A stretch of DNA of 50,423 nucleotides from a virus (Duplodnaviria > Caudoviricetes), in IMG/VR virus record IMGVR_UViG_3300025030_000147, positions 1 through 50,423 of that record. One strand, 5' to 3'. Shown here in pieces: positions 222-47,747 of the stretch. Position numbers and translations under genes: made by a program. Under the pieces are notes generated by a model that saw nothing but the letters and a program-made list of their open reading frames with translations, was not told where the DNA came from and did not search any database. How positions within the stretch are numbered: position 1 is the first letter of the stretch; the number at the start of each line of letters is the position of its first letter.

Positions 222-238
222 TTATCCACATATCCACA
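222..238 (+). promoter_or_regulatory. DnaA box TTATCCACA (222-230) plus overlapping 1-mismatch box ATATCCACA (230-238)
   Basis: Exact match to the canonical DnaA R-box. Confidence 0.65.
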
Positions 239-29884: not shown

Positions 29885-29913
29885 ATTGTACATATTAATG
29901 AGCGACAAGTCAA
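29885..29913 (-). promoter_or_regulatory. Sigma70 promoter for tail operon (TTGACT-17-TACAAT)
   Basis: Near-consensus boxes upstream of sheath RBS. Confidence 0.7.
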
Positions 29914-32237: not shown

Positions 32238-33658
32238 AGGAATTTCACATCATCTACGGAGTAGTCGAAGAAGCTGCCACCCGTCTGATTTGTGAGCGAT
32301 TGGGCCACAAATCCTAGATCGGTCCCAAGTGTGGCCGTAAAACTTACGGGGGCTATGAGCTGAATCCCATTTCGCAAAACTCTTACTTGACTTGATGACG
32401 TTATTTCCATCCTGTATATCGTCCCAGCAGGATCATCTGTGACAACAATGGACCCCAATGATGTTCCGTTACCCGATGCATCGACGCTTGATAAATCCAT
32501 AGTTCTGCTTGATGCAAAAGAGTTGATGTTGAAATAGATGATATTTTTTTGAGGACGACCTGATGCGGATGGGTTGTGATCCGCCACATTGAAAAGCATG
32601 AACACCAGCAAACTAGCATTTGAAGTGAGCGGTTTTTGCACCGTTTGCTTGAATTCAACATATCGACCTACAGCCATCGGTAATGTTGTCTTTGCTTTGT
32701 ACACCTGTCTTACAAGAGATGCGTTCGCACTGCTCAAGTGAGTTGCGAGAGCACTATTTTGGATATTGAAGTACGACCCGCCAGCTAAACTGCCCTCAGT
32801 TGTCAACGTGTTCCAGTACGTGCTGCTCAACGGATCTCCATTCGCTCCGGTGAAGCTGTCGGTGAACCCAGTATAAGGCACGCCTGTTTTAACCTCACTC
32901 AGCGCAGATTCTCCAACAGCATTGACCGCTGTAGCAGCGTACTTGTAGGTGACACCATTTGTCCGACCTGAGTGAACGTATGGCGAGGTAGCCCCGGTGA
33001 TCTTGGTGCTGGAGAGTGTTGGGGTAGACCCGTCGCTGGTCCAATAAATGTTGTAGCTGGTTGCACCGGATACCGCCCCCCATGTTACGGTATTCTGACC
33101 GTCGCCCGCAGTCACTGAGGTAGCGGGCGCGGCGGGAGCTGCTGCAGCGGGCGTGTAGGTATCCGATACCGTAGCCGCCGCGCTGATCGCCGCAACAACC
33201 TGTTCTAGCATGGTCTGCACATCGGTCACGGTGGCTACTACCTCGCCTGCTGCGGTCACCGTCTCAGCAAATCCGGTCACCACACTGCCTGCCTCGGTGG
33301 CAGACGACAGCAGCGCCTCGTTCATCACCTGGGCGTCGGCGGCGCTCACGGTGACGCCTGCAGCGGCAAGGAGGGTGTCGCGGCGGGTGATCAGTTCGGC
33401 CACGGTGACTTCGGCAGCGGCAAAAGTCTGCACCGGCTCGGAGATTCCCGGAGTGCCTACCTGCATGATGGTTTCGTTGGAGACGATCGGTGTTGTGTCG
33501 CCGGTCAGCGGAACCATGCGGAGCTTAACGGCGTAGGTCCCGGTGGAGAGCCCGGCAACGGTGAGGCTCTTGTCCGGTCCCGGCGTCTCGTCGGTCTTGC
33601 CAGGCAACCAGGGACCACCGTTGACGTTATATTCGAGGTTGTAGTGACGTGCTGGCAT
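32234..33658 (-). CDS. Fibronectin type III domain virion/adhesion protein
   Basis: TAGDGQNTVTWGAVSGATSYNIYW...NGVTYKYAATAVNAVGES. Confidence 0.8.
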   Translation of the reverse strand: MPARHYNLEYNVNGGPWLPGKTDETPGPDKSLTVAGLSTGTYAVKLRMVPLTGDTTPIVSNETIMQVGTPGISEPVQTFAAAEVTVAELITRRDTLLAAAGVTVSAADAQVMNEALLSSATEAGSVVTGFAETVTAAGEVVATVTDVQTMLEQVVAAISAAATVSDTYTPAAAAPAAPATSVTAGDGQNTVTWGAVSGATSYNIYWTSDGSTPTLSSTKITGATSPYVHSGRTNGVTYKYAATAVNAVGESALSEVKTGVPYTGFTDSFTGANGDPLSSTYWNTLTTEGSLAGGSYFNIQNSALATHLSSANASLVRQVYKAKTTLPMAVGRYVEFKQTVQKPLTSNASLLVFMLFNVADHNPSASGRPQKNIIYFNINSFASSRTMDLSSVDASGNGTSLGSIVVTDDPAGTIYRMEITSSSQVRVLRNGIQLIAPVSFTATLGTDLGFVAQSLTNQTGGSFFDYSVDDVKFL

Positions 33659-33667
33659 GGACTCTCC

Positions 33668-33892
33668 TTAGCGAAGCTCGTAACTGTACGAAATGGTCAG
33701 GCTGCTTCCATCCGCAAAATAAGTCGTCACAGGTGCTGGCAATGACTGATGACATCCCGCGCACTGGAAGTTAGTGGCCTTCTGCTTTCGCTCGCTCTCT
33801 AGCCATGATCTTTGCAGCGGCACACCTATGATGGTTGCAAGCGATATTGCGACAGACAGCAGTGAAAAGATAATTGTCAGATTGTTTTTCAT
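33668..33892 (-). CDS. 74-aa membrane-anchored protein with CxxCH motif (possible mono-heme c-type cytochrome)
   Basis: N-terminal hydrophobic helix; CAGCH; GGAGGG RBS. Confidence 0.6.
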   Translation of the reverse strand: MKNNLTIIFSLLSVAISLATIIGVPLQRSWLESERKQKATNFQCAGCHQSLPAPVTTYFADGSSLTISYSYELR

Positions 33893-33960
33893 CTGTTACC
33901 CCCTCCAGTAAGTTGGACAGCGGAGGGGCCTAGACGGACTAGGCCCGACCATTTTGCAGC

Positions 33961-34626
33961 TTACTGTAGACGGATCTTGTAGGTAATCTGGAGCGAGTCA
34001 CCCGCAGCCAGGGTACGGGTAGCGGCCAGGGCGGCGTAGGCTACCAGCTTCCCGGTGTTGTCGCTGGAGGTGGCGAGCGCGGCGTAGGTCACGGGGCCGA
34101 CGGTGCCGGTGGCGGTGATGGTGACGGTCTTGCTGGTGATCTCGTAGTGCGATGAAACGAGCTGCGGCACCAGGGGCCAGCCGGTCGAGTCGCGGGTGAT
34201 ACCCTGGGACGCGGGGGCGTAACCGTTGGCGGTGGTCGGCTCACTTGCCGACAGTGTGGTAAGGGTGGAAGTCAGGCCCGGCGTGGTGTTGTAGAGGCGT
34301 AGGTAGTACCCGGTCGGCGGGGTGTTGCCGCGGAACATCACGTCTTCGATCAGGTACTCACCCTCGTTGGCAAGGGCGTTCGGAACATCATGCTCTTCCC
34401 AGATCACGTCGCCGTGGGAGTTGCGGGCCACCAGGTCGAAGTAGCCGTGCTCCTGGATCTGTGCCGCGACCTTGACCGGAGTGTCAGCCTGCCTAAGAGT
34501 GTCGAGCGCGACGGCGGCTGCGGCGGGATTCTGGATCGAGGCGGTGACAGCCTCCTTGTGGACGGTCGAGCAGGCCGTAAGACAGACCAGCACGGTGAGC
34601 AGGACAAGCGAGTACAATTTTTTCAT
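33961..34626 (-). CDS. Lipoprotein-signal-bearing virion-type beta-sandwich protein
   Basis: MKKLYSLVLLTVLVCLTA-C lipobox; body resembles phage fibre-attachment proteins (YLRLY...GY...GKLVAYAAL...LAAGDSLQITY). Confidence 0.7.
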   Translation of the reverse strand: MKKLYSLVLLTVLVCLTACSTVHKEAVTASIQNPAAAAVALDTLRQADTPVKVAAQIQEHGYFDLVARNSHGDVIWEEHDVPNALANEGEYLIEDVMFRGNTPPTGYYLRLYNTTPGLTSTLTTLSASEPTTANGYAPASQGITRDSTGWPLVPQLVSSHYEITSKTVTITATGTVGPVTYAALATSSDNTGKLVAYAALAATRTLAAGDSLQITYKIRLQ

Positions 34627-34640
34627 TTCACAACTCCTTT

Positions 34641-35264
34641 TTATGGTGTGGTTACTCCAGTTTTTTCTACGTTATCGCCCACCAGGTCCAGCACGGTGGA
34701 CACGCCGCCTACCGCGGGTTTGCTGACCTCGCCGCCTACCGGCTCGACGGTTTGACAGCTAAATTGGACGGTACCATTGAGCAGCACCAATTCGCCCTGT
34801 GGCAGAGGATCTTCTTTGCTGATCGCGTCCACCCAACGATCTGACACCAGACCTACCCGCAGCCCCAGGTCGGCGTTACGCGGATCCATGAGAATGTTGC
34901 GGACCGCTGCCGCAGTGTCGTCCCAAAGGTCGTCCGCTATGCTGCTGGCATCCCGGGCCGCAGCCAGCGCCGCAGCTTTTTGGGTGGGGAGCGCGTCTGC
35001 CATGTTAATGGCGGCGAGGTTACATTTTGCCGCGGCGCTGGCGGTCACGCCGATGGCGTAGATCATCGCGTGCTGCACATCGCCGTACTGAGCACCCCGG
35101 CTCTTGGGAAAGTTACCCTGAGAGAAGAAAACCTGCACCGTAGGCCGGTCTTTCGACTCACGGGCGTCCTGTCCCTGCCCCTGATAGCCGACGACCGTAA
35201 AACGACCCTCTGCGGCGGCTCCGAGGGTATCCACGATGGCTTTTTTGACTATCTGGAAATTCAT
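34641..35264 (-). CDS. Neck/tail terminator protein
   Basis: Synteny and size. Confidence 0.6.
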   Translation of the reverse strand: MNFQIVKKAIVDTLGAAAEGRFTVVGYQGQGQDARESKDRPTVQVFFSQGNFPKSRGAQYGDVQHAMIYAIGVTASAAAKCNLAAINMADALPTQKAAALAAARDASSIADDLWDDTAAAVRNILMDPRNADLGLRVGLVSDRWVDAISKEDPLPQGELVLLNGTVQFSCQTVEPVGGEVSKPAVGGVSTVLDLVGDNVEKTGVTTP

Positions 35265-35611
35265 TCAGTCTGCTCCACTGCCTGCAGGTAGAGGCGGATG
35301 AAACCAAGGGACTCACCACCCTCGGGCGGGCGGGTCGGGGAGATGACATACTGCCCGTCAGACAGCGTCACAAGCCACGTTTCACCAGCAACCGGTATGC
35401 GTGGTAGGCTGGACCGGCGCAAGGACACAATGGGATTGCGGCAGACCGTCCGCTCGCCGTTCTCGGGGTTCATCCGCACCAGATCGTAGAGCACCTGACC
35501 TTTCAGGTCGGTGTACTCTGCTCCGTCAGGTGCAACAAGGGCGACTGGCGTTGACCAGTCGCCCTCAAGAGTTACCGCGAGATCCTGCTCTGCGAGGTCG
35601 CGGAGATTCAC
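35261..35611 (-). CDS. Head-tail joining protein
   Basis: Synteny and size. Confidence 0.6.
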   Translation of the reverse strand: MNLRDLAEQDLAVTLEGDWSTPVALVAPDGAEYTDLKGQVLYDLVRMNPENGERTVCRNPIVSLRRSSLPRIPVAGETWLVTLSDGQYVISPTRPPEGGESLGFIRLYLQAVEQTE

Positions 35612-35718
35612 GCCGGCTGTTCGGTGATGGTCTTACCGCCCTTGGGTGCAGGGGCAGGCGCCGCTACCGGCTCGGACTTGACGGTACACTGACCGCCCAC
35701 GTAGACGCGAGTTGCCAT
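35608..35718 (-). CDS. 36-aa hypothetical protein, not in ORF track
   Basis: AAGGAGG RBS; GTGA overlap with next gene. Confidence 0.45.
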   Translation of the reverse strand: MATRVYVGGQCTVKSEPVAAPAPAPKGGKTITEQPA

Positions 35719-35720
35719 TT

Positions 35721-36086
35721 TTACTTGCCCTCCTTGACCTTGGGACCAGCGGTGTTCATGGCTGCGTTGGTCATCTCAGTGATGGTTTTCTGCGCCTGGA
35801 CCAGTTGGGTCGCCAAGTCATCGTTCTCGGCGGTGAGGGCTACCACACGGGCCTGCTCGGCGGCTACCTGCGCCGACAACTCCCCTATCTGCGCCAATGC
35901 GTCGTCCAGGCGGTTGTCCGGTGCAGCCGGTGCAGCGGCGACAATCTCGCCCACCTTGCCCTTGCGTGTCAGCGCAGTGAGGGTATCCTCGTCCACGCCT
36001 TTAGGCATCTCTTCACCTACCTTGTAGTCTTTACCGCCGAAGGAATACACCCCCGGTCCGAGCCATTTAGCCATATCGTCCTCCAT
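35721..36086 (-). CDS. Post-capsid accessory protein (gpFI-like position) with coiled coil
   Basis: GKDYKVGEEMP...LTRKGKV motif; synteny. Confidence 0.6.
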   Translation of the reverse strand: MEDDMAKWLGPGVYSFGGKDYKVGEEMPKGVDEDTLTALTRKGKVGEIVAAAPAAPDNRLDDALAQIGELSAQVAAEQARVVALTAENDDLATQLVQAQKTITEMTNAAMNTAGPKVKEGK

Positions 36087-36109
36087 TTTATGTGGTGAGG
36101 CTTACACCC

Positions 36110-36139
36110 AAAAAGCCCCCCTGCTCTTGACAGGGGGGC
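36110..36139 (-). terminator. Rho-independent terminator after capsid gene
   Basis: GCCCCCCTG/CAGGGGGGC stem followed by U-tract on minus strand. Confidence 0.8.
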
Positions 36140-36162
36140 CGGTTCTGATACGCTTTTAACCG

Positions 36163-37374
36163 TTACGGCTCGGTGTCGAGGACCACGAATGCGTCGGTCT
36201 GCGTGGTAGCGAAGATCGGCGCGCACTGAGTCTCGATGCTGACGCGCTTCCAGTCGCTGCTGACGAACGCCTGGCAGTAGAACGCCTGCGCCGGAATGCC
36301 CTGGTCGGTGCCGCCTTTGACATTGGGGGGCATCATCGGTGCGCTCGGGTCGAAGCCGAACAGTTCGCGGTAGAGCTGTGCGCGCTGCGGCAGCATGGGC
36401 AGACCCTCGTTTGGGCCGAAGTAGCGGTCACACCTGGCTGCGCTGGAGGTGAGCAGCACCTTGTCGGCGGCGATATAAGGGGTTGCGGTGCCGTTGGTCG
36501 CGGTGTAGTATTCCGGGTAGGTGAACAGGTAAAGCTGGTAACCCTGCGGGGTGCGAAGCTCGCCCTGATAGACCATGCCGCCCGCGACGAAGCGTGCAAA
36601 CTTGGCCGGCATGACCGACCCGTTGCCCAGGCTGATGTAGGTGTACCGGCGGTTGTCCGCCAGTTTCTGCACCGTTGCATCCCTGATGAAGCTGGACATT
36701 GCGCCGGAACCGAATACCCCCATATCGAAGGTGATGTGACCGTTCTGCCTGCCCTTGGCATTACCGCCGTCGATGTCGCCCAGGATGTCCGCCGAGCCGC
36801 CCGCCCAGGAGGTACCGCACTGGATGGTGTGCGCGGAGTTCCTGCGGAAGTCGTACTGGAGGTCGGTGTTGCTGGTACCGAGAATGGCATCCTGCTTGCC
36901 GGTCATGATGGACTGCCACGCCAGCACTTCACCCAGGCGCATGATGCGGCGGATGTTCTCGTTGTGGATGCGGGCCGCATGGTGACGGAAACGCTGCATC
37001 TGAGTGATGCCCGAGTTGACGGATGCCTCGCCGGCCACGCGGGTGGTCAGGTTTTCAGCGGTGATGTCACCAGTCTCGATAGCGAGCGGGAACTTACGGG
37101 AAAACGAGGTAAACTGCTCGGTCCTGGCATTCTTCTGGAGCGACCCGAGCGACTTGCTGAAAGTGCCGCGGGGAACCAGTGCAGCTACCCTCTCGTCGCC
37201 GCGGATGATGTCGATGTCCACGGTGTTGGCGTCGGGCATGTAGATGGTGCGGGAACCGCCTGCGGTGTTCCCAAAGAAGCTCAAGCCTGCGGTGGGCACG
37301 CCGATGATCTGTTGCTCATCGTACATGCCGGCGGCAAACCGGCTGAAAAGATCCTGCGGTAACGGAGTACTCAT
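36163..37374 (-). CDS. Major capsid protein (lambda gpE family)
   Basis: TVDIDIIRG...AALV, E.LAWQ...TGK, YDFRR motifs; synteny. Confidence 0.88.
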   Translation of the reverse strand: MSTPLPQDLFSRFAAGMYDEQQIIGVPTAGLSFFGNTAGGSRTIYMPDANTVDIDIIRGDERVAALVPRGTFSKSLGSLQKNARTEQFTSFSRKFPLAIETGDITAENLTTRVAGEASVNSGITQMQRFRHHAARIHNENIRRIMRLGEVLAWQSIMTGKQDAILGTSNTDLQYDFRRNSAHTIQCGTSWAGGSADILGDIDGGNAKGRQNGHITFDMGVFGSGAMSSFIRDATVQKLADNRRYTYISLGNGSVMPAKFARFVAGGMVYQGELRTPQGYQLYLFTYPEYYTATNGTATPYIAADKVLLTSSAARCDRYFGPNEGLPMLPQRAQLYRELFGFDPSAPMMPPNVKGGTDQGIPAQAFYCQAFVSSDWKRVSIETQCAPIFATTQTDAFVVLDTEP

Positions 37375-37387
37375 TTTACCTCACCTC

Positions 37388-37864
37388 CTAGTTTTCGAGT
37401 TTGTTGATGTCAGTGGTAGCTTCCACGAAGATGCCGATTCTTGCCAGGTCATCCTCGATGCGACGGACGTTGACCGCGCCGTTGTCGGCACCAGCCGGAT
37501 CGTCCGAGCAGACGCTGTTGATGGTCAGGCTGTTTTCCAGCACCAGCAGCGAACTGTCGACCGAGCAGCCGTCATACCCGCCTACCACGATGGGGCAGTT
37601 TGCTACGTCACCTGCCACGATGGTGGCTGCTGCGATGTCCTCGCCGATATAGATGCCGCGAGCCGCATTGGAGCCGTCCAGTGCGGCCACATCGGTGAGC
37701 GGAACCCACTTCCTCGATGCTGCGACCTGGGCCATGACGGTACCGAATTTGAGCGCAGCGGCGCGGGCGCCGTCGGTCAGGATGGTTTCGGCATCCTTGA
37801 TGATGGTGGAGCCCCCGGTGAAAAAGGGGAAATTGGTGAAATCAGTTCTTCCCTGTACGGCCAT
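37388..37864 (-). CDS. Head decoration protein (gpD-like)
   Basis: LKFGTVMA...KW....DGS..ARGI pattern; between protease and capsid. Confidence 0.78.
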   Translation of the reverse strand: MAVQGRTDFTNFPFFTGGSTIIKDAETILTDGARAAALKFGTVMAQVAASRKWVPLTDVAALDGSNAARGIYIGEDIAAATIVAGDVANCPIVVGGYDGCSVDSSLLVLENSLTINSVCSDDPAGADNGAVNVRRIEDDLARIGIFVEATTDINKLEN

Positions 37865-37866
37865 TG

Positions 37867-38943
37867 TTAGTTACCCCCTTTGGCGAGAGCGATGGCGGCC
37901 TGCAGGTCGTCCTCGCTGGCTACCGGCTGTGCCGGGTCGTACTGCGCCTGCTGCTGTGCCGGCGTAGCACCCTGCTGCTCGGTAGCGGTCTGCGCGGCGG
38001 TCTGAGCGTTCATCTGCTTCACGGCATCCACAGCGGCGACGGACGAGGTCAGTTCCACCTGGGACGCCTCACCCTTGAGCACCTTGAGGGCGGTCTGCCC
38101 GATGATCGGCGGGTACTCGGTACTCGCCATGATGGGAGCGACGGAGTTGATCACCGCCTGCAGCTCCTGTTTCCCCTCGGTACGGGCGGCATTAAGCGCC
38201 TGGTCGTACTCGGCCTTGGCCGCGGGGTTTGCATCCAGCAATTCTTTCAATGCCATCTGCACTTCCTCCTTTTTGGGTTTTCCCGCGGCCACTGCTGCGG
38301 GGGGTTGAATCGACGGCATGATTGCCATCGCTTGTGCGAAGTCTTTACGGGCCTCTGCCGGGTCAGCAGACCATTTGGCGTATGCCTCATGGTAGATCGC
38401 CTGTGCGGCGGCGAGGCAAGCCTCCTGATCGCCGTCATCCTCGGTTTCGATGATCTCATCCACAAACCCGTGGGTGAGCATTTCGTCACCGAAGAAAAAC
38501 GTCTCCTTGTCCATCATTTCAGCGAGTTCATCCACCGACTTGCCGGTGCGCTTGGCGTACTGCTTGGCGAGCAGACCGGAGAGCCCTTTGGTAAACTGCC
38601 CGTAGGCGAGTATGTCGTTGTGGTCACCCCACACGCCGCCGCGGGCGTTGTGGATCATGTACACGGCGTTGTCGTGAGCCTTAACCTTATCGCAGGCCAG
38701 CGGAATGTAGCTCGCCATGCTCATGGCAAAGCCGGACAGGACCGCCGTGGTTTCCCCACCGTAGTTGCGAATCAGGTTGAAAATCTCCAAACCCTGAGAG
38801 ATAAAACCGCCCGGGCTGGACACGTCAAACTCGACAGCTTCACCGTTGGCGGCCTGCAATTCCTCCCGCACACCCCTCGCAGTGGTATCCCATCCGATGA
38901 TGCCGGTAATTGCTATTTTCTTCGCCAAGGCTACCCCCTTCAT
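37867..38943 (-). CDS. ClpP-like prohead protease with C-terminal scaffold (start may be TTG 38928)
   Basis: SSPGG, AMSMASYI, YMIHNA, GFVDEI. Confidence 0.9.
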   Translation of the reverse strand: MKGVALAKKIAITGIIGWDTTARGVREELQAANGEAVEFDVSSPGGFISQGLEIFNLIRNYGGETTAVLSGFAMSMASYIPLACDKVKAHDNAVYMIHNARGGVWGDHNDILAYGQFTKGLSGLLAKQYAKRTGKSVDELAEMMDKETFFFGDEMLTHGFVDEIIETEDDGDQEACLAAAQAIYHEAYAKWSADPAEARKDFAQAMAIMPSIQPPAAVAAGKPKKEEVQMALKELLDANPAAKAEYDQALNAARTEGKQELQAVINSVAPIMASTEYPPIIGQTALKVLKGEASQVELTSSVAAVDAVKQMNAQTAAQTATEQQGATPAQQQAQYDPAQPVASEDDLQAAIALAKGGN

Positions 38944-38948
38944 AAAAG

Positions 38949-39070
38949 TTATCCACAGGGTTAAAAGGCAAATTTGGAGCTTGGTTTTTCGCTAGTAATA
39001 CCAGCTAATTACACCGCTCGACCTGTGGATAACCTGTGGATTCGTGTGGATAACTTTTTATTTATCCACA
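38949..39070. promoter_or_regulatory. Cluster of DnaA boxes: 4 perfect (38949-57 +, 39024-32 -, 39045-53 -, 39062-70 +) and 1 imperfect (39035-43)
   Basis: Exact TTATCCACA/TGTGGATAA matches. Confidence 0.85.
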
Positions 39071-39095
39071 AAATGCTATTTCTAGGCTCGCGCGC

Positions 39096-39124
39096 ACGGT
39101 ACAACCGACTCATTAAAAAGTCAA
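39096..39124 (-). promoter_or_regulatory. Putative sigma70 promoter for head operon (TTGACT-17-TACCGT)
   Basis: Same architecture as the promoters at 29885 and 43140. Confidence 0.55.
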
Positions 39125-39127
39125 GTC

Positions 39128-39289
39128 TTATTTCAGTAGCGGTATGGTATTGCCGCTTGCCGCCGGAGATGTCGTCACGGATTTGGGTTGCTCGATGGTC
39201 AGATTGTTATCGTTGCCCGATACCGTGACGTTGATGGTCGAGCATCCAGCTAGCGCGACGCCAAAAATTAACAGTAAAAGTTTTTTCAT
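39128..39289 (-). CDS. 53-aa lipoprotein, not in ORF track
   Basis: MKKLLLLIFGVALAG-C lipobox; AGGAG RBS. Confidence 0.75.
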   Translation of the reverse strand: MKKLLLLIFGVALAGCSTINVTVSGNDNNLTIEQPKSVTTSPAASGNTIPLLK

Positions 39290-39524
39290 TTTTCAGTCTC
39301 CTGTATCGCCTGCTCCAACATCTCATCGCACGCATTGGACCAGTATTCGTATTCCGCATGGACCGCGCCGTACCAGGGGTCGTACAAACTGATTGAGTTT
39401 TGCAAATCACCCCACAACTTAGCCTGCTCACAGACGGCGATATGTATTTCTACGTCCATGTAGTCGTGGGCGGAACTATCGTGGGGGAAAGCAGCATGAC
39501 GACGATCATCAGGATAATTTTCAT
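39286..39524 (-). pseudogene. Frameshifted small secreted protein
   Basis: Signal-like MKIILMIVVMLLSP stops after 24 aa; one extra C in the C5 run would join it to a frame ending at the next ATGA. Confidence 0.5.
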
Positions 39525-39688
39525 TTTCGCAGCTCCCATAAGACCTTGACCGCCACCGTGTTGACCTTGGCGGGTGACTCTCCTACTTCATGCCGGACAC
39601 TGGTACCTGCTTCAAGACCCACCGTTTTGGGGCAGGCAACTGACGTGCAGCCGGTCAACAGCAGACACCACACAGCTAACCACCGCAC
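39521..39688 (-). CDS. 55-aa lipoprotein, not in ORF track
   Basis: MRWLAVWCLLLTG-C lipobox; GGAGG RBS. Confidence 0.72.
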   Translation of the reverse strand: MRWLAVWCLLLTGCTSVACPKTVGLEAGTSVRHEVGESPAKVNTVAVKVLWELRK

Positions 39689-40236
39689 GCAGCGAGCCTC
39701 CTGATATAAACGTCGATACCATGATCCTTCACGTCGATACCGCCATCACGGTCGTGGAGGACTACCGCATCGCAGGTATGTTTGTAGAGTATCCTGGGGA
39801 CCATTGTCACGGGGTCGTCGTCACAGACTATTCGAGTGTGCTCGATGGTGGGTGGCGGCGCTCCAAAACGGTAGTCATTTCTGAGGCACCCGAAGGTGGT
39901 CACGGGGAGGCGCAGCGCCCGGGCAAAATTCAGCGCAAGGCCGCCACCGAAAGAATGCCCGGTGACATGGACGTTATTGAGGGAGGCGCCGTACAGTTTT
40001 GCGATAACGTGGTCCCAAAGGACGTGTTCGGCCCGCGCTACACCGCCGTGCGAGAGGTATCCCGATCTACTGCGAAGCGGCACCACGAACAGATCACGCA
40101 TGACGTTGCGCCAGTTAGCCGTGCCACGAAAGACAAGGGTGCTGCCGATCAAACCAAAACGCAGATCCCCGACAGTAGTAAATCGAGGGTCTGCGTCATT
40201 GTAGCTCGCCTTGCACAGAATCGCTTTTTGCAGCAT
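39676..40236 (-). CDS. Class 3 lipase (alpha/beta hydrolase)
   Basis: LVFRGT, HGG, VHVTGHSFGG (GxSxG), TFG, DPVTMVP, terminal DH..Y: full Ser-Asp-His triad. Confidence 0.88.
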   Translation of the reverse strand: MLQKAILCKASYNDADPRFTTVGDLRFGLIGSTLVFRGTANWRNVMRDLFVVPLRSRSGYLSHGGVARAEHVLWDHVIAKLYGASLNNVHVTGHSFGGGLALNFARALRLPVTTFGCLRNDYRFGAPPPTIEHTRIVCDDDPVTMVPRILYKHTCDAVVLHDRDGGIDVKDHGIDVYIRRLAACGG

Positions 40237-40360
40237 CGGTCCGCTCCTTTTCAAGTCGATCACGTTTGGTCCGGCAGGCTACCGCTGGCACCTTAACGCA
40301 CGCATTAAATTTTCCAGCATGTTCGCACGTTCCACCTATGAAGTTGCAGTGCCCTGGCAT
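40196..40360 (-). CDS. 54-aa Cys-rich hypothetical protein, not in ORF track
   Basis: GGAG RBS; bridges endolysin and lipase. Confidence 0.4.
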   Translation of the reverse strand: MPGHCNFIGGTCEHAGKFNACVKVPAVACRTKRDRLEKERTDAAKSDSVQGELQ

Positions 40361-40974
40361 GACAGTATCTCCGTGATCCGGTTGTACCGTGCTTTACGGT
40401 CGTCCAAGCCCATCAGACCACCGTTGATCCTCACCGTGAGCGTTTTCATGTCGACGACATCAGCTAGAGCATTCAATTCTCGTGTTTTCCAGTACCAGCA
40501 CGCCGACTCGACGGCGCCCTGTTTGGTCTTGAGGTAATCGAGTGTTTCGTCTAAGGTCTTGTTGATGCTGCGGGCAAAGTCGGACTGGTTACCCTTACCT
40601 GTGAGTTGGATCAGACCACGGCCACGGTGGCGGTAGCCGTCACCGGACTCTTCAGGACCATTGCCCATCCTGTTGGCGTAGGCGCGGTTACCGATCCGCT
40701 CGGGCTGGCGGGCGTACTTAGCCGCCACATCGGCGGGAAACCGTTTGGGCCAGGTGCGGGTCAGCGCCTCGGCCGAGTAATTAAGGTTTTCCACCAGCTT
40801 GGTAAACCCGATGCTCTCATGACCGCACTGCGCGAGGAATGCGGCGATACGCAGCTTGCTGTCGATGTGGTAGGTGGGCAGGACTGCGTTCAGCGCAGCG
40901 GCCCACTCAGTCGGCTCCTGTGCGGCCGGGAAACATTTATGGAACTGCTCGGCGCTGATCATTGCACCTGACAC
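40336..40974 (-). CDS. Endolysin, glycoside hydrolase family 19
   Basis: AAFLAQCGHES, ENLNYS, YANRMGNG, RGRGLIQLTG, INGG..GL.DR. Confidence 0.93.
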   Translation of the reverse strand: MSGAMISAEQFHKCFPAAQEPTEWAAALNAVLPTYHIDSKLRIAAFLAQCGHESIGFTKLVENLNYSAEALTRTWPKRFPADVAAKYARQPERIGNRAYANRMGNGPEESGDGYRHRGRGLIQLTGKGNQSDFARSINKTLDETLDYLKTKQGAVESACWYWKTRELNALADVVDMKTLTVRINGGLMGLDDRKARYNRITEILSCQGTATS

Positions 40975-41171
40975 TTTTTACTGCAGCGCCGATGCTCTAT
41001 GAAGCAGAGCATACAGGTGTAGACTTTCGGACCCTGGCGAAGTATCTGAATCAAGGTGTAAATTGCAGTGAGTATGTAGACCCAAATCTGCCACTCAATG
41101 CCAAAAAAGCTGGTCGCTGTGATAAGCGCCGGGGGTACTACTTTCACACTCTCGGTAACGACTTCACGCAT
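40959..41171 (-). CDS. Holin (T7 class II-like)
   Basis: PPALITATSFFGI...WVYILTAIYTLIQI; directly upstream of endolysin. Confidence 0.78.
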   Translation of the reverse strand: MREVVTESVKVVPPALITATSFFGIEWQIWVYILTAIYTLIQILRQGPKVYTCMLCFIEHRRCSKKCQVQ

Positions 41172-41186
41172 CAAACACCCCCAATA

Positions 41187-42851
41187 TTATTCATGATCAT
41201 TCAAAAAAGACTCAAGGCGGTCCATCAGATCGTCCACCCGCGAACGCGCCTGCTGCTGACCGGCGGGGGCAGGGGCAGCCTCGGCTACAGCCGCCTGTGT
41301 CCACGGGGCGTTGACGAACCCCTTGTAGAGCGACTTATTCTTTTCGATGTTTGCCGATGCACTGGACCCGTTCAGATCCCTCGCCTCGCGTTCTAGGTTG
41401 CTGACCCCGATCTCGATGTTCTCGCGGCGGGCCTTTGCGGTCTTAGCCGGGTCGATGTCGGGCGGCGGTGTGCCGATCCAGTTTTTCTTGAGCCAGGCGG
41501 CGCGCAGGCGGGGGTCGGACCACCCTGGAGCGACGATACGTCCGGCGGCAATCTCGCCCGACAGCCACATTTCCACGCACGGGTCCAGATAGTCGCTCGC
41601 CATCTCGTTGCGCCAGATCTGGCAGACGCGCCAGAACAGCAGCAGGGTGGCGCGGGAGGCCGAATAGTTCTGGTTGAACTTCATCAGCACGACTTCCAGC
41701 GGAATGCTCAAGCTGGAGGACAGGTGGCTGGCAAACGCATCCACAAAGGTGTCGAACTTATCGCCCGGTGCCGAGTTGGGGAACGGTTTAAGGGTGGACC
41801 CTTTGGTGAGGTTGGCAACGACCATTGACCCCGGTGTGTTACTGGTCGCCTCGGGTATCCTTGACACCGCCGTGACGCCCGGGTACAATTGTTCAACTGG
41901 CTCGGATGGTGTCACCTGACTGACCGGCGGCGCGGCAGGGCCGGCTCCCTGACCGGTCAGGATGCCCTCGAACACGTTGACAGCATCCTCGTCCTCGGAC
42001 GGCTCGATGAACGCCACGAAACCAGCTTGGTTGATCGCCTTTTTGATACTGGCCGCCGAGAAATCGGTGATGTTCTCGAACTCCTGAATTGCGTGCGCCA
42101 GGCGGGAGTATCCGCGGCCTTGACCGGCGTACTCGGGGCGGAACCCGTGCAGCATGAAGATCCTGCCGGACTTGTCGGTGGCGGGGATGGTCACAGGGGT
42201 GAAATTGCCCTCAGTGTCCCTCACCCAAATCTTGTAGCCCGTCTCTCTACCGTTGGCGTCCCGCTCGATGCCGTCCTTTCCGAGTTGGAAACCCCAACTG
42301 GAGGTGTAAGCATCGCCGCGCACCTGGTCGGGGTCAATGAACTCCCACTGCAGGGGATTCTGGAGCCCGGGGTCGTTACTGTAGAAGAACCGCACGAAGA
42401 TGTCGTTATCGCGGTGCTGGAAAAGCTGGTAGAGGTTCTGTGACTGGTACCAGGTCAGGTTCCCTGCGCGGTGCTGTTTCTTGTCGCGCGCCCACAGGTC
42501 GAACCGCTCACCGACATCGTGCGCCCACTCGGCGGCACGCTCGGGAGTGATGCCTAGGATCTCGCAACAGGGGGTAAGTTCTAGGCGCAGACCGGTATCG
42601 GCCACGGTGTCTGCGAACCGCTCCACGATGGCACGGGCCTGCATGGAGTCGTTCATGGCAGCGCGGGCGTTCCGGCGCGCCTCGGTGTGGCTCACGTAGG
42701 TGGTGCGACCGCTGGCTGACAGACCGGCGGGCCACTTGCTGCCCCCGCGGTCGCGGATGGTGAAGGTCGATGCATCGTCATACGCCTGGGGCGCTGCGGG
42801 AGTGCCCGCCCAACCAGACATTTTGCCGGCGAACCAGGAAATGATGCTCAT
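41187..42851 (-). CDS. Portal protein (lambda gpB family)
   Basis: DGIE.D..GR..GY, GQGRG, NYSASRA..L, IDPAK motifs. Confidence 0.92.
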   Translation of the reverse strand: MSIISWFAGKMSGWAGTPAAPQAYDDASTFTIRDRGGSKWPAGLSASGRTTYVSHTEARRNARAAMNDSMQARAIVERFADTVADTGLRLELTPCCEILGITPERAAEWAHDVGERFDLWARDKKQHRAGNLTWYQSQNLYQLFQHRDNDIFVRFFYSNDPGLQNPLQWEFIDPDQVRGDAYTSSWGFQLGKDGIERDANGRETGYKIWVRDTEGNFTPVTIPATDKSGRIFMLHGFRPEYAGQGRGYSRLAHAIQEFENITDFSAASIKKAINQAGFVAFIEPSEDEDAVNVFEGILTGQGAGPAAPPVSQVTPSEPVEQLYPGVTAVSRIPEATSNTPGSMVVANLTKGSTLKPFPNSAPGDKFDTFVDAFASHLSSSLSIPLEVVLMKFNQNYSASRATLLLFWRVCQIWRNEMASDYLDPCVEMWLSGEIAAGRIVAPGWSDPRLRAAWLKKNWIGTPPPDIDPAKTAKARRENIEIGVSNLEREARDLNGSSASANIEKNKSLYKGFVNAPWTQAAVAEAAPAPAGQQQARSRVDDLMDRLESFLNDHE

Positions 42852-43132
42852 CGGCTGTGCCTCCGCAGGTTCATGTTGATCAGACCACGGCCATAGAGTC
42901 GATTGGTGAGCCTGTTGATTTGGGATTCGATCAGGGAAATTTCGCGGGAGAGTTCTTCGGGCGACCGCCTCTTGGTCATCTGTTTTCCCTCTCCACTATC
43001 AAAACTGTAGGTTTCCACCTCAGAATGAGAAAGCGCAGCCAGATACGCCGTGTTGGCGGCGTCTAGCTGCGCTTGTTTGGCTGCGATCTGTGCCGCAATC
43101 TGCGCTTTCTCTGTGGTGGACAGGTAGCTCAT
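42848..43132 (-). CDS. Head completion protein (gpW-like)
   Basis: Size, helix-hairpin-helix pattern and position before portal. Confidence 0.7.
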   Translation of the reverse strand: MSYLSTTEKAQIAAQIAAKQAQLDAANTAYLAALSHSEVETYSFDSGEGKQMTKRRSPEELSREISLIESQINRLTNRLYGRGLINMNLRRHSR

Positions 43133-43139
43133 GGCGCGC

Positions 43140-43168
43140 AGGGTACAGTGCGCTCATGAGAAAGTCAA
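43140..43168 (-). promoter_or_regulatory. Putative sigma70 promoter (TTGACT-17-TACCCT), 7 nt before ATG
   Basis: Spacing; AT-rich upstream; no SD before gene. Confidence 0.55.
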
Positions 43169-43184
43169 GAAATTAATTAAACAT

Positions 43185-43319
43185 CTACCAGTTGATCTTC
43201 ATGTCGATCTTGCGACCCTTCCATAACAGATAAAGGAAAAGTACCCCAAGTGCAATAAGGAACACAATCACGGTGCAACCAAAAACTTGCAGCAGAGTGA
43301 TAACCTTTTCGGGTATCAT
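43185..43319 (-). CDS. 44-aa single-TM protein, not in ORF track
   Basis: Long hydrophobic stretch followed by basic tail. Confidence 0.5.
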   Translation of the reverse strand: MIPEKVITLLQVFGCTVIVFLIALGVLFLYLLWKGRKIDMKINW

Positions 43320-43324
43320 TACCG

Positions 43325-43477
43325 TCACGACGCCTCCCTTGTAGCCGCCGCGGCACGCATGATCGCCGCCTTGCGCCTAGCCTGGCAGTCCTCTACCATC
43401 ACCATGAACTTCATCATCAACCCGTTGTATCCAATACACCCGCATGTCGACATATCCCGCCACGTTTTACGCTCCAT
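43325..43477 (-). CDS. Small hypothetical protein (MERKTWRD...)
   Basis: AGGAGGT RBS. Confidence 0.45.
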   Translation of the reverse strand: MERKTWRDMSTCGCIGYNGLMMKFMVMVEDCQARRKAAIMRAAAATREAS

Positions 43478-43781
43478 CACCACACCTCCTGACGAATTTT
43501 CCGTTGATGTGCGGTATCGTGCCGCACTGGTACGCCGCCCCCGACTGAGTCGACCCGCAGTACGGACAGACGGGCGGTATGGGTGTCTCTTCCGGCTCAA
43601 TGCCGCTGATACACCGGTCCTTGACGTACTCGCTGATCGACATCTTGCGCCGGAATGCGCGCCGCCGGAACTCTTCCTTTTCATGGGTGGTCACCCTGAT
43701 CTGGAGTTGCGAGTCGGCGGTATCATCCTTGCTGGTTCCTGACGGACGACCTGCCCCCTTTCTTGCACCGCCGCTAGGCAC
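43467..43781 (-). CDS. Ribbon-helix-helix-type DNA-binding protein with C-terminal zinc ribbon
   Basis: GGARKGAGRP, LQIRVT..EKEEF...MSISEYV, CPYCG. Confidence 0.7.
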   Translation of the reverse strand: MPSGGARKGAGRPSGTSKDDTADSQLQIRVTTHEKEEFRRRAFRRKMSISEYVKDRCISGIEPEETPIPPVCPYCGSTQSGAAYQCGTIPHINGKFVRRCGDGA

Positions 43782-44376
43782 TGTTCACCTCCAATTTGTT
43801 GTGTTTACTCATATTTTCGGATGCGGTTATCACTTGAAGATTCCAAGGTACGTGCAACCCGCTTACGTTTTCACCCTGTAGCGGAACTATGTGATCTACA
43901 TGGTACTGTACCCCCAAAGCATCGCTCAACATTTTTGAATAGAGATAAAAAGCCTCTATCTGAACTAAATGATCTTCCGTAAGCCATTTAGGGGTACGTT
44001 GTATCTTAGATAATTGATATTTACGGGTGTAGTGCAACATTTTATGAGAGTTTTTACTACGCCACTCACGATTAACTTCAAGTATCCTATCCTTATTTTC
44101 CTTGTATATTTTCTGATGACGTTCTTTTTCTTTATCCTTGTTTCTGGCGTACCACTCTTTTTGGGCTTTTAACTGCTTTTCTTTATTCTTAGCAGTCCAC
44201 GCATCGCTGGCAGCTTTTCTTTTTATTTTACAACGCCTTGCATCAATTTCTTTTTTCTTTTCCTTGTTATTAGAAGCCCACGCTTTATTTCTAGCACGTA
44301 GGCAAGTTTTACATGTGCCGTTTTTGTAGACGTTTTCAGGAACCAAAGGATGACCGTTTACGCAGTGTGTTTTCAT
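43774..44376 (-). CDS. HNH homing endonuclease
   Basis: HVDHIVPL.G..VSGLHVPWNLQVI...N..K.N; AT-rich. Confidence 0.9.
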   Translation of the reverse strand: MKTHCVNGHPLVPENVYKNGTCKTCLRARNKAWASNNKEKKKEIDARRCKIKRKAASDAWTAKNKEKQLKAQKEWYARNKDKEKERHQKIYKENKDRILEVNREWRSKNSHKMLHYTRKYQLSKIQRTPKWLTEDHLVQIEAFYLYSKMLSDALGVQYHVDHIVPLQGENVSGLHVPWNLQVITASENMSKHNKLEVNSA

Positions 44377-44383
44377 GGATTAC

Positions 44384-44412
44384 AAAATAATTTATTTTAG
44401 ATTTAATGTCAA
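44384..44412 (-). promoter_or_regulatory. Sigma70 promoter (TTGACA-17-TATTTT), 7 nt before HNH ATG
   Basis: Perfect -35, spacing. Confidence 0.6.
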
Positions 44413-44421
44413 TACTTATTT

Positions 44422-46341
44422 TCACCGAGGACCTGCACCTTGTTTCGTCATCATGTCGAGGACCATGATATGATTGATCTGCTGGATCTCGATATCCGAT
44501 GCGCCCGCCTGTTTGGCAGCCATTCGCATAGCGTTCACCTTGCTATCCAGGTACACGTCGCCAGCACATAGGGCGTACACGCGGCAGTCCAGCGCCTCAT
44601 TACGACGCCCCCCTGCGTGGAAACTCCCATCGACGCGCTTTTCCTCCGCAGCAAGCTGAACAAAGTATTTTTCTGCGCGGTCACGGGGGAAATTGCAAAA
44701 GCCAGGGCGCTGCGGCTCCACGTCCCTACGTTGGATCTGCAGGTTCGAGTAGGTCCGGCTTTTGTAGTAGTGGGTGGATATGTCGTAGAAGGTCACGTCG
44801 CCGGCGCGGTTACTGCGGACAGCACGATAGCGGATGAAGTCGTGGGGGCCGGCCTCGTCGCCAGTTTCATCACGCCGTTTCTTGAGCGCCCCCACCCCCT
44901 TGATAGGAAAGGTATTTTGCCACCGGCTTGTGAACGCATACACGATGTCCACAAGGTTGCCGTCACCGCTGTCGATAAAGATCAGACTGACCGGGCGACC
45001 CTGTAACATCAGACCACCCTTGAGCGCCCATTGATGCATGTCCTCCCAGGCGCCCTCGAACGCGCTCTTACCGGTATCCCCCTCGAACACCTTGTAGCCG
45101 AGCGACCAGGTGCGGAAACCGGCGCCGTGACCGAGTATTTCTGCCTCCAAGCGCGGTGGATTGAGCGGGTCGCCGGCAGAGCCCCGTTGCACGTCCACGC
45201 CCATTGTGATGAACAGCACGCCGTCCGGCACCTCGCCCTCACGATACTCGCCACGTAGCTCGATGATCTTCTCTACCTTGGGCCTGCTGCCGATCTCCTT
45301 GTAGGGCATACCGAGGTACAGGTTTGTGAACGACCTCATCTTAGCAGGATCGTCCTTGGCATCCAGATACTTCTGATATAGCTCATACCAGGAGAGCATA
45401 CCCGGGGCGCTGTACATCGAGCTGATCCAGTAGCTCCGGTGGTTCTTGTTGTTCGGAGTGGCGGTCGCCTCCCAATAGCCAGCGGCGAACATCTCCGCTT
45501 TTTGGTGATTATGGATCTGGCCGGCACAGTGGGGGCACTCGTACCAAACCTTGTAGAGATGGCCGCCCTTCATCTCATGCCGCAGGTTGCGGAACTCCAA
45601 GTGGTCGAACACGCCGCAGCACGGACAGGGCACCTTGAACTTGCGCCGGTCGCCCATCTCATAGCGGTCGCGGATCAAACTGGCTTCATGTGTGGTGGGT
45701 GTGGAAAACTCCATGATCTTCTTGCGTGCACCCCAGGCGGCGGTTCGACCGTGGGCGACATCCAACCAGTTACCCTCGCCGGTGGTGAGCAGAGCAGGGG
45801 CACCGTCGACCTCATCGAGTACCAGGACGCGCTTGCTGTCGGACCGCAGACTGCTCGCGCTGCGGCTGGACGCCATGTTGAGGGTACCACCAGCGTACTC
45901 CTTACTGAAAGTCTTATCCCCAGTGCGTCGGCTTTTAGAATTTTCGATCTGCGCGAAGATTTTGGGCCGCATCCCGATAGAGTCGATCAGCGGCTCCAGG
46001 CGTTTGGTAGCCCACTTCTCAAGCAGTTCCTCGTTGGCGCTCACGTACAGGATCTCAGCCGGCACGCAATCCATGAAATACGCGATAACGTTCTCCGCAC
46101 ACGCGGTCAGGCCCAACTGAACACCCTTCATCACGCTGACAATCTGAACGGGTGAGAAAGGGCTCATCGAATCCATCAGTTCCACCATATATGGGGTCTT
46201 AGCATTATCCCAAAAGCCCGGGAATGGCGTGTTGGTGGGCATAAGACGATGACCTTGTACATAGTCAGAGATTAGAGCGGGAGGAGCAGTGATAGGTTTA
46301 AGATTATTCTGTTCAAGCAGAAATTGGATGTCGGAAATCAT
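44422..46341 (-). CDS. terL: Terminase large subunit (lambda gpA family)
   Basis: TPY..E.MD, KGVQLG, LDEVD, STPT, CPCC/CPHC, GVDVQ, IDSG, RNEALDC. Confidence 0.93.
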   Translation of the reverse strand: MISDIQFLLEQNNLKPITAPPALISDYVQGHRLMPTNTPFPGFWDNAKTPYMVELMDSMSPFSPVQIVSVMKGVQLGLTACAENVIAYFMDCVPAEILYVSANEELLEKWATKRLEPLIDSIGMRPKIFAQIENSKSRRTGDKTFSKEYAGGTLNMASSRSASSLRSDSKRVLVLDEVDGAPALLTTGEGNWLDVAHGRTAAWGARKKIMEFSTPTTHEASLIRDRYEMGDRRKFKVPCPCCGVFDHLEFRNLRHEMKGGHLYKVWYECPHCAGQIHNHQKAEMFAAGYWEATATPNNKNHRSYWISSMYSAPGMLSWYELYQKYLDAKDDPAKMRSFTNLYLGMPYKEIGSRPKVEKIIELRGEYREGEVPDGVLFITMGVDVQRGSAGDPLNPPRLEAEILGHGAGFRTWSLGYKVFEGDTGKSAFEGAWEDMHQWALKGGLMLQGRPVSLIFIDSGDGNLVDIVYAFTSRWQNTFPIKGVGALKKRRDETGDEAGPHDFIRYRAVRSNRAGDVTFYDISTHYYKSRTYSNLQIQRRDVEPQRPGFCNFPRDRAEKYFVQLAAEEKRVDGSFHAGGRRNEALDCRVYALCAGDVYLDSKVNAMRMAAKQAGASDIEIQQINHIMVLDMMTKQGAGPR

Positions 46342-47710: not shown

Positions 47711-47717
47711 GGCGGCG

Positions 47718-47747
47718 ATGCTACCACCGTGCAACAGATGTTGTCAA
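47718..47747 (-). promoter_or_regulatory. Sigma70 promoter (TTGACA-18-TAGCAT, extended -10), 7 nt before terS ATG
   Basis: Perfect -35, TGn extension. Confidence 0.65.

What the first reader, a model, noticed from the sequence alone, without database searches (positions are those of the whole stretch)
38949..39124. oriC-like DnaA-box array in the leader of the phage head operon
Seen: four perfect DnaA R-boxes plus one imperfect box within 122 bp, three of them phased 10-11 bp apart, lying between a putative promoter (39096-39124) and the protease-decoration-capsid genes. Established: TTATCCACA clusters mark bacterial oriC, datA-type DnaA sinks and DnaA-repressed promoters. This phage encodes its own primase-helicase and PolB, so it has no obvious need for DnaA initiation. 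Inference: (a) a copy-number timer in which host DnaA blocks capsid transcription until replicating phage genomes titrate it; (b) a decoy that drains DnaA from host oriC and stops host initiation; or (c) a DnaA-dependent origin for a plasmid-like carrier state (no integrase is visible).
Basis: partly seen in the sequence, partly recalled or inferred. Interest (0 to 1): 0.85.

Follow-up and report, generated by a model that had tools for sequence, protein, structure and literature searches.

The report
Host DnaA sites gating phage head genes
An uncultured groundwater phage carries a tight cluster of perfect binding sites for the host's replication starter protein DnaA just after a promoter and just before its capsid-building genes, so capsid production is probably tied to that host protein, though no binding has been tested.

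Summary
There are four perfect TTATCCACA boxes and one 7-of-9 box within 122 bp (38949-39070). The window holds 5 perfect boxes against 0.26 expected. The window is a complete 50.4-kb orphan myophage from groundwater. Two other assemblies carry the same junction with no differences, so it is not a chimera.

TTGACT-N15-TGTACnnT plus a GC-rich discriminator occurs exactly three times, always in a gene gap on the gene strand: before portal, head protease and tail sheath. Only the head copy has a long leader, and the boxes fill it at about +19 to +65 and +132 to +140.

The array includes the window's only tandem "double box" with a 2-bp gap, the form E. coli DnaA binds in vivo.

It is not oriC-like. 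It has no AT-rich unwinding element, no origin-type skew switch and no IHF site. Relatives lack the array.

Best reading (0.4): DnaA controls the head promoter. A DnaA sink or an auxiliary origin remain possible. This scan has noted phage DnaA-box arrays before on other DNA, and T5 has them in print.

The parts
39096..39124 (-). Head promoter (P_head): -35 TTGACT at 39124-39119, 17-bp spacer, -10 TACCGT at 39101-39096. A GC-rich discriminator follows at 39095-39089. The start of transcription is predicted near 39089 and has not been mapped.
   Evidence: One of exactly 3 matches to TTGAC[TA]-N15-TGTACnnT in the window. All three are on the minus strand in gene gaps. None occurred in 200 shuffles. 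The simple sigma-70 scan did not call it because the -10 matches only 3 of 6.
39062..39070 (+). DnaA box E, perfect. It lies at about +19 to +27 of the predicted transcript and forms an inverted pair with box D across an 8-bp A/T spacer.
39045..39053 (-). DnaA box D, perfect, at about +36 to +44.
39035..39043 (-). DnaA box C', GAATCCACA (7 of 9). It is the upstream half of the tandem double box with box B (2-bp gap).
   Evidence: This is the only such pair in the window; 5 of 300 shuffles had one or more.
39024..39032 (-). DnaA box B, perfect, at about +57 to +65. It is the downstream half of the double box.
38949..38957 (+). DnaA box A, perfect, at about +132 to +140. It lies 6 bp before the ATG at 38943 and 21 bp before the TTG at 38928.
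37867..38943 (-). Head maturation protease (ClpP type). The start is either ATG 38943 or, more likely, TTG 38928, which follows the ribosome site AAGGGGG.
   Evidence: phrog_94 at 2e-50. Pfam CLP_protease at 2e-23. The N-terminus lines up with the L006 homologue from the TTG.
36163..37864 (-). Head decoration gene (37388-37864) and major head protein gene (36163-37374), downstream in the same unit.
   Evidence: phrog_49 and phrog_29
39128..41174 (-). Lysis cassette lying between portal and protease: holin, endolysin, a Lipase_3-like protein and two small lipoproteins. The P_head-plus-box gap follows it.
   Evidence: holin phrog_920 at 3e-13; endolysin phrog_181 at 5e-75; Lipase_3; lipoboxes in the translations. 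The cassette is absent in 3 of 3 metagenomic relatives, where portal abuts protease.
43140..43168 (-). Sister promoter before the 94-aa gene and portal. It has almost no leader and no DnaA box.
   Evidence: No box with 2 or fewer mismatches within about 200 bp.
29885..29913 (-). Sister promoter before the tail sheath gene. It has a short leader and no DnaA box.
222..238 (+). Second DnaA site: a perfect box overlapping a 1-mismatch box, 8 bp after a 29-bp x 7.4 tandem array (1-214) at the contig start.

Best explanation
The cluster is a binding array for the host initiator DnaA, built into the first 140 bp transcribed from a host-type (sigma-70) promoter. That promoter drives the head protease, decoration and capsid genes.

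Shown:
- the boxes and their spacing;
- a canonical tandem double box;
- a promoter motif that the phage uses three times;
- the fact that only the head copy carries boxes.

Inferred:
- DnaA sits at +19 to +65, with its first box abutting the downstream edge of a polymerase bound at the promoter, and again at +132.
- There it changes how much transcript reaches the head genes. The most likely mode is hindering promoter escape or acting as a roadblock, which would also stop read-through from the lysis genes upstream.
- Each new phage genome adds seven boxes, so free DnaA per site would fall as phage DNA accumulates. Head gene expression would then rise with genome copy number or with the state of host DnaA.

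The sign of the effect is open. Activation, as reported for lambda pR, is also possible.
For: - Box statistics: 5 perfect boxes against 0.26 expected, all in non-coding DNA.
- Promoter class: found 3 times, all on the gene strand in gene gaps, with none in 200 shuffles.
- Specificity: there is no box with 2 or fewer mismatches near the other two promoters.
- Leader length: the head promoter has a leader of about 158 nt, while the others have short ones or none.
- Double box: C'-gg-B is the only tandem double box in the window. E. coli DnaA binds in vivo mainly to such pairs spaced 2-3 bp apart, and that paper's introduction cites DnaA as a roadblock to elongating polymerase (PMC11317965, passages).
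- Phage precedent: lambda pR is listed as regulated by DnaA, and boxes downstream of lambda pO were footprinted (PMC2777414 and PMC3985674, passages).
- Relative: Shewanella phage SppYZU01 has a promoter-like TTGACG-N17-TAATAT in the 60-bp gap before its protease, without boxes. An internal head promoter may therefore be ancestral and the boxes an add-on.
- The junction is real in two other assemblies.
Against: - No binding, transcript start or expression data exist. The promoter is a motif inference with a weak -10, and the simple scan missed it.
- Portal and tail promoters lack boxes, so a timer would act on head genes alone, which is odd.
- No relative carries the array, so selection on it cannot be shown.
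- In a survey of 80 viral loci with perfect double boxes, none had a head protease, capsid or portal gene as a neighbour. Eleven had replication or recombination genes and seven had small terminase. This position is therefore atypical for phage DnaA arrays.
- The host is unknown.
Confidence: 0.4

Rival explanations
1. DnaA sink. The boxes do nothing locally. As the phage genome multiplies, its seven boxes per copy soak up host DnaA and stop new rounds of host chromosome replication. Non-origin DnaA-box clusters such as E. coli datA work on this principle.
For: - High-affinity boxes sit at two separate non-coding sites (38949-39070 and 222-238).
- The array lies in a lineage-specific stretch with accessory genes.
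- This reading is compatible with the best explanation rather than exclusive of it.
Against: - No IHF consensus site lies in or near the array; the window has 2 matches, both elsewhere. From recall, datA needs IHF.
- A sink could sit anywhere, so the exact placement between a promoter and a ribosome site is left unexplained.
- The benefit to a lytic phage is untested.
Confidence: 0.2
2. Auxiliary replication origin. DnaA bound at the array, helped by transcription from the adjacent promoter, opens the DNA so that the phage helicase-primase can load.
For: - A helically phased DnaA-box array lies next to a promoter.
- On the minus strand, four NAN triplets lie 2 bp from box E. This formally fits the box, spacer (0-16 bp) and three-or-more-trios pattern of the bacterial unwinding system (PMC8287927, passages; sequence).
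- Other phage double boxes often lie by replication genes (11 of 80 loci).
Against: - The triplet pattern is loose. By my rough estimate it arises by chance in a tenth to a half of such flanks.
- What follows the triplets is a GC-rich discriminator, not an AT-rich element. The most AT-rich 40-mer in the gap (75%) is boxes D and E themselves.
- Cumulative GC skew has its minimum at 13854 and a flat maximum near 38149, the opposite of an origin signature, and it is noisy.
- The phage has its own primase-helicase, second helicase, polymerase and ssDNA-binding protein.
- The array sits in the late unit, far from the replication genes.
- Relatives replicate without it.
Confidence: 0.15
3. RNA-level leader element. 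The inverted box pairs form hairpins in the head mRNA leader that set its stability or translation, and the match to the DnaA box is incidental.
For: The 170-nt leader folds to -50.5 kcal/mol with a z-score of -3.38. No shuffle out of 200 folded as well.
Against: - Any two opposed copies of a 9-mer must pair, so the fold follows from the repeats.
- Two different stems have no reason to use the same 9-mer, to match the DnaA consensus exactly four times, or to recur at 222.
- The tandem set B, C' and D cannot pair with itself.
- No U-tract follows either hairpin, so there is no terminator.
- There is no Rfam match.
Confidence: 0.05
4. Tether or pause site of the kind proposed for T5, or a site for an unknown phage protein. 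Under the T5-style reading, membrane-bound DnaA holds this part of the genome during entry or organises replicating DNA.
For: T5-like phages keep 8 ordered DnaA boxes in the injection-stop region although they replicate from elsewhere (bioRxiv 10.1101/866236, passages). The second box pair of this phage lies beside a repeat array at the contig end.
Against: - The T5 role is itself only a proposal.
- The 39-kb array is internal and lies between genes.
- The physical ends of this genome are unknown.
- No protein with a DnaA-like DNA-binding domain turned up in the PHROG or Pfam scans.
Confidence: 0.07

Closest known systems
DnaA-regulated promoters and DnaA roadblocks of E. coli (dnaA, nrdA, mioC, rpoH; double DnaA boxes, PMC11317965)
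   Same: Consensus boxes lie within tens of bp of a sigma-70-type promoter. There is a tandem pair with a 2-bp gap in which the downstream box is perfect and followed by G, as in several sites of that paper's Table 1. The boxes lie inside a transcribed region.
   Different: This array is on a lytic-type phage, in front of capsid genes. It has four perfect boxes rather than one pair. No binding or regulation has been measured.
Phage lambda pR and pO with DnaA sites downstream of the promoter (PMC3985674, PMC2777414)
   Same: A phage promoter carries host DnaA sites downstream, linking transcription to the host initiator.
   Different: In lambda the promoters serve early and replication functions and the sites are weak matches. 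Here the promoter serves head genes and the sites are perfect and clustered.
DnaA-box sets in the injection-stop region of T5-like phages (bioRxiv 10.1101/866236)
   Same: It is a virulent phage with its own replication genes that carries an ordered set of host DnaA boxes in non-coding DNA away from any mapped origin.
   Different: The T5 boxes lie in the terminal repeat, come in pairs 3 bp apart inside large inverted repeats, and are conserved in 25 relatives. Here the array is internal, sits between a promoter and a gene, and is not conserved.
E. coli datA and the DnaA-box clusters of Bacillus subtilis (PMC2533591, seen in a search listing only)
   Same: It is a non-origin cluster of high-affinity boxes that could hold DnaA.
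   Different: No IHF site was found. It is on a multicopy viral genome, and it has a promoter-proximal layout.
Bacterial oriC with the basal unwinding system (PMC8287927)
   Same: Clustered, phased boxes are present, and a formal box-spacer-triplet match exists at box E.
   Different: There is no AT-rich unwinding region, no skew switch and no neighbouring replication genes.

Membership tests
DnaA binding site cluster | Matches to the 9-mer TTATCCACA | tested here: met
   Four perfect boxes and one 7-of-9 box lie within 122 bp. The window has 5 perfect boxes against 0.26 expected.
DnaA binding site cluster | Tandem double box with a 2-3 bp gap (in vivo binding rule, PMC11317965) | tested here: met
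   GAATCCACA-gg-TTATCCACA at 39043-39024 (-) is the only such pair in the window. Five of 300 shuffles had one or more.
DnaA binding site cluster | Binding by the host's DnaA | not testable with these tools
   The host is unknown and no protein-DNA assay is available.
DnaA-regulated promoter | A promoter next to or overlapping the boxes | tested here: met
   The motif class TTGACT-N15-TGTACnnT occurs 3 times against none in 200 shuffles, and the boxes begin about 19 bp after the predicted start. The start has not been mapped.
DnaA-regulated promoter | Expression changes with DnaA level or box mutation | not testable with these tools
   This needs a reporter assay.
oriC-type DnaA-dependent origin | AT-rich unwinding element beside the boxes | tested here: not met
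   The 66-bp spacer between boxes A and B is 56% A+T. The richest 40-mer (75%) is boxes D and E themselves. The flank beyond them is GC-rich.
oriC-type DnaA-dependent origin | DnaA-trios within 0-16 bp of a box | tested here: inconclusive
   Four NAN triplets lie 2 bp from box E on the minus strand, but the pattern is loose enough to arise by chance. Beside box B the best run lies 19 bp away, outside the rule.
oriC-type DnaA-dependent origin | GC-skew minimum or switch at the site | tested here: not met
   The cumulative minimum is at 13854 and a flat maximum lies near 38149.
oriC-type DnaA-dependent origin | Autonomous replication | not testable with these tools
   This is a bench test.
datA-type DnaA sink | IHF site within the cluster (requirement recalled, not read here) | tested here: not met
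   WATCAANNNNTTR has 2 matches in the window, at 5454 and 12230, and none near the array.
T5-type injection-stop DnaA boxes | Location in a terminal repeat, inside large inverted repeats, conserved among relatives | tested here: not met
   The array is internal and lies between genes. Relatives lack it. The genome ends are unknown.

The most novel reading that the evidence does not exclude
The phage reuses the bacterial initiator-titration principle as a genome counter. Host DnaA bound in the leader keeps the protease, decoration and capsid genes off early in infection. Each newly made phage genome adds seven high-affinity boxes, so free DnaA is diluted and capsid synthesis switches on in step with the amount of DNA to be packaged. 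As a side effect, the host origin is starved of its initiator.
Probability: 0.2. Interest if true: 0.8.

Novelty: new variant of a known kind. Interest (0 to 1): 0.5.

Why it matters
How phages without a dedicated late activator delay their structural genes until DNA has been copied is often unknown. A host-initiator site array placed in the leader of the capsid genes would be a simple, testable coupling of late expression to replication or to host growth state.

It would also give a function to a class of elements that is widespread but unexplained. Perfect double DnaA boxes occur in at least 123 uncultured viral contigs, and T5 has carried unexplained DnaA boxes since 1987 (as stated in bioRxiv 10.1101/866236).

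The claim can be tested with a 200-bp fragment in a laboratory strain, without growing the phage.

Tried and rejected
**Chimeric join with host DNA: rejected.**
- A 35-kb contig of run X1 covers 31000-50423 with 0 differences.
- A 5.2-kb contig of run X2 covers 37553-42750 with 0 differences.
- Both runs come from one study and may be the source of this DNA.

**Conservation test: no close relative exists.**
- The protease query gave at best 64% identity in viral contigs, and nothing closer in metagenome or genome contigs.
- The capsid query found nothing.
- The promoter-motif pattern found nothing in viral contigs.

**DNA similarity searches.**
- Region 36000-42000 against phages gave only endolysin matches to Pseudomonas phages at 72-76%.
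- Region 38931-39300 against plasmids gave nothing.
- Region 1-400 against phages gave nothing.

**Other checks that gave nothing.**
- Rfam found nothing in 38700-39500.
- A simple terminator scan found none between the lysis genes and the protease.
- The small ORFs inside the gap (34 aa on the minus strand, 84 aa on the plus strand) were dismissed. The first starts upstream of the predicted transcript start and has no ribosome site. The second is antisense.

**Plasmid-prophage reading.** No integrase, partition or Rep gene was found. The named relatives I fetched are deposited as isolated phages; that they are lytic is my reading and was not checked.

**Polymerase family.** A PDB sequence search gave no hit. 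The family rests on 45% identity to PEAT2 gp05, as annotated by its depositors.

**Not available.** Relatives cannot be drawn for a virus record.

Full report
**What the window is.** The window is a whole IMG/VR virus record of 50,423 bp. It is classed as linear and CheckV rates it 100% complete. PHROG and Pfam scans give the following map.
- Minus strand, 395-7590: a replication block with a radical-SAM protein, an NrS-1-like primase-polymerase fused to a DUF5906 helicase, a TetR-like protein, a nuclease and a helicase.
- Plus strand, 7722-16587: a block with an exonuclease, a gp2.5-like ssDNA-binding protein and a DNA polymerase.
- Minus strand, 48478 down to 16743: one long structural arm. 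It carries large terminase flanked by HNH genes, portal, a lysis cassette, head protease, decoration protein, major head protein, sheath, tape measure, baseplate and fibres.

The polymerase is 45% identical to PEAT2 gp05, which its depositors annotate as B-family. No integrase, partition or Rep gene was found.

The primase is 47-53% identical to those of Shewanella phage SppYZU01, Acinetobacter phage Scuro, Klebsiella phage FZ14 and Pectobacterium phage PEAT2. SppYZU01 has the same overall gene order.

**The observation.** Perfect TTATCCACA boxes lie at 38949 (+), 39024 (-), 39045 (-) and 39062 (+). GAATCCACA lies at 39035 (-).
- The window holds 5 perfect boxes against 0.26 expected, and none of 100 shuffles reached 5.
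- Boxes B, C' and D are head to tail with gaps of 2 and 1 bp.
- D and E form an inverted pair across an 8-bp A/T spacer.
- Box A lies 66 bp further on, just before the protease ribosome site.
- The gap 38931-39127 has GC 0.42 in a genome of 0.585.

**It is not an assembly artefact.** Logan contigs from two runs of one groundwater study cover the junction with no differences. One is a 35-kb contig over 31000-50423 and the other a 5.2-kb contig over 37553-42750. These runs may be the source of the record, so this is re-assembly and not independent sampling.

**The promoter.** Reading the gene gaps of the structural arm on the gene strand showed three near-identical promoter-like elements. A regex for TTGAC[TA]-N15-TGTACnnT finds exactly three matches, at 43168, 39124 and 29913. 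All are on the minus strand, all lie in gene gaps, and none occurred in 200 shuffles.
- The copies at 43168 and 39124 also share TGTACCnTGCGCGC, a GC-rich discriminator.
- They stand before the portal unit, the head unit and the tail sheath.
- The portal copy runs almost straight into its ATG. The sheath copy has a short leader.
- Only the head copy has a leader of about 158 nt, and that leader is where the DnaA boxes are.
- No box with 2 or fewer mismatches lies within about 200 bp of the other two promoters.

With a start near 39089, box E is at +19 to +27, D at +36 to +44, C' at +46 to +54, B at +57 to +65 and A at +132 to +140.

**Are these sites DnaA could use?** Stringer, Fitzgerald and Wade (PMC11317965, passages read) report that E. 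coli DnaA binds in vivo almost only to tandem pairs of boxes 2 or 3 bp apart. Their introduction cites DnaA acting as a roadblock to elongating polymerase. The C'-gg-B pair fits that rule and is the only such pair in the window; 5 of 300 shuffles had one or more. The host is unknown. The endolysin is 72-76% identical at DNA level to endolysins of Pseudomonas phages, which is a weak hint of a pseudomonad-like host.

**Relatives.**
- In 3 of 3 metagenomic relatives with sequence upstream of the protease (L006 at 64%, L009 at 58% and L007 at 42% protease identity), portal abuts protease. They have no lysis cassette, no gap and no boxes.
- The four named relatives have 0, 0, 0 and 2 perfect boxes. 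The two in Scuro are single and scattered.
- SppYZU01 has a promoter-like TTGACG-N17-TAATAT in the 60-bp gap before its protease, without boxes.

The array is therefore a lineage-specific addition, and conservation cannot be used for or against function.

**Tests of the origin reading.**
- No AT-rich unwinding tract lies beside the boxes.
- Cumulative GC skew has its minimum at 13854 and a flat maximum near 38149, and gene-to-gene noise is as large as any trend.
- No IHF consensus site lies near the array.
- The box-spacer-triplet rule of the bacterial unwinding system (PMC8287927, passages) is formally met at box E. However, the pattern is loose and GC-rich DNA follows it.

**RNA reading.** The leader folds well, with a z-score of -3.38. 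The stems are simply the opposed box copies. No U-tract follows them and Rfam has no match.

**How common are such arrays in phages?**
- The triple-box pattern occurs in 10 other viral contigs. By eye these fall into 4 sequence types, all low-GC and unrelated to this phage.
Eighty loci were fetched and were not de-replicated.
- In 75 of those 80 loci the match is not inside a long ORF.
- I scanned 125 flanking ORFs from 75 loci. Eleven loci have a replication or recombination neighbour, 7 have small terminase, 3 have a ParB-like gene, 3 have a methyltransferase, and 0 have a head protease, capsid or portal gene. Most neighbours have no known function.

Phage DnaA arrays are therefore common, but this position is unusual.

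**Literature.**
- T5-like phages keep 8 ordered DnaA boxes in the injection-stop region. The author proposes a membrane-DnaA stop (bioRxiv 10.1101/866236, passages).
- Lambda pR is listed as DnaA-regulated, and boxes downstream of pO were footprinted (PMC2777414 and PMC3985674, passages).
- Phage Mu couples late transcription to replication through the sliding clamp, not through boxes (PMC12867686, passages).
- My searches found no report of a DnaA-box array in the leader of phage head genes. The library lacks most subscription journals.
- Earlier notes of this scan describe DnaA-box arrays on other uncultured phages. I used them as leads only.

**Verdict.** This is a real, statistically strong, well-assembled DnaA-site array. 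It is not oriC-like. It is best read as a host-initiator input on the head-gene promoter (0.4). A DnaA sink (0.2) and an auxiliary origin (0.15) are live rivals. The sink and the timer readings are not exclusive.

Noticed in passing
window 1-240: The contig starts inside 7.4 perfect copies of a non-coding 29-bp GC-rich tandem repeat. Eight bp after the array come a perfect DnaA box and an overlapping 1-mismatch box. This lies in the convergent gap downstream of the replication operon. The repeat occurs nowhere else in the window. The Logan contig of run X1 also stops at window end 50423, so the assembly probably broke in this array. It may be an iteron-type origin or an end structure.
   Followed up: partly
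window 7590-7684: Divergent promoter-like pair between the two replication blocks: TTGACA...TATGTT on the minus strand and TTGACA...TATTGT on the plus strand. Both share the inner word CGCCAACTGTCTGTAT. This may be an operator for the conserved TetR-like protein encoded at 4457-4756.
   Followed up: no
window 39128-41174: The lysis cassette sits between portal and protease. It comprises a holin, a GH19-like endolysin, a 195-aa Lipase_3-like protein and two small lipoproteins with lipoboxes. One lipoprotein gene overlaps the 3' end of the lipase-like gene. A lipase-like gene in a lysis cassette is unusual.
   Followed up: partly
window 5670-5695: A run of 26 C lies inside the 85-aa ORF 5499-5756. 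It may be a slippage-prone tract or an assembly artefact.
   Followed up: no
window 7797-8052: Twelve copies of a 21-bp repeat lie inside ORF 7722-8123, giving a 7-residue repeat protein with no family match.
   Followed up: no
window 43774-44376 and 46338-47078: Two HNH / endonuclease VII-like genes of low GC (0.39 and 0.41) flank the large terminase gene. They look like homing endonucleases.
   Followed up: no
window 48479-48886: A 408-bp gap with GC 0.33 lies between the structural arm and a small plus-strand block. It has strong divergent promoter-like sites (TTGACA-N18-TATTAA on the minus strand; TTGACT-N17-TATAGT on the plus strand) and one 1-mismatch DnaA box at 48765. It is the most AT-rich part of the genome and another origin candidate.
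   Followed up: no
L052-L131 (viral contigs): Perfect tandem double DnaA boxes are widespread in uncultured viral contigs. They are mostly intergenic, and where the neighbours are known they are most often replication genes or small terminase. Many loci hold 3-11 perfect boxes within 300 bp.
   Followed up: partly
window 48886-49930: Two adjacent genes encode proteins with repeated Cys-rich motifs (phrog_1081, function unknown), placed at the start of the small plus-strand block.
   Followed up: no
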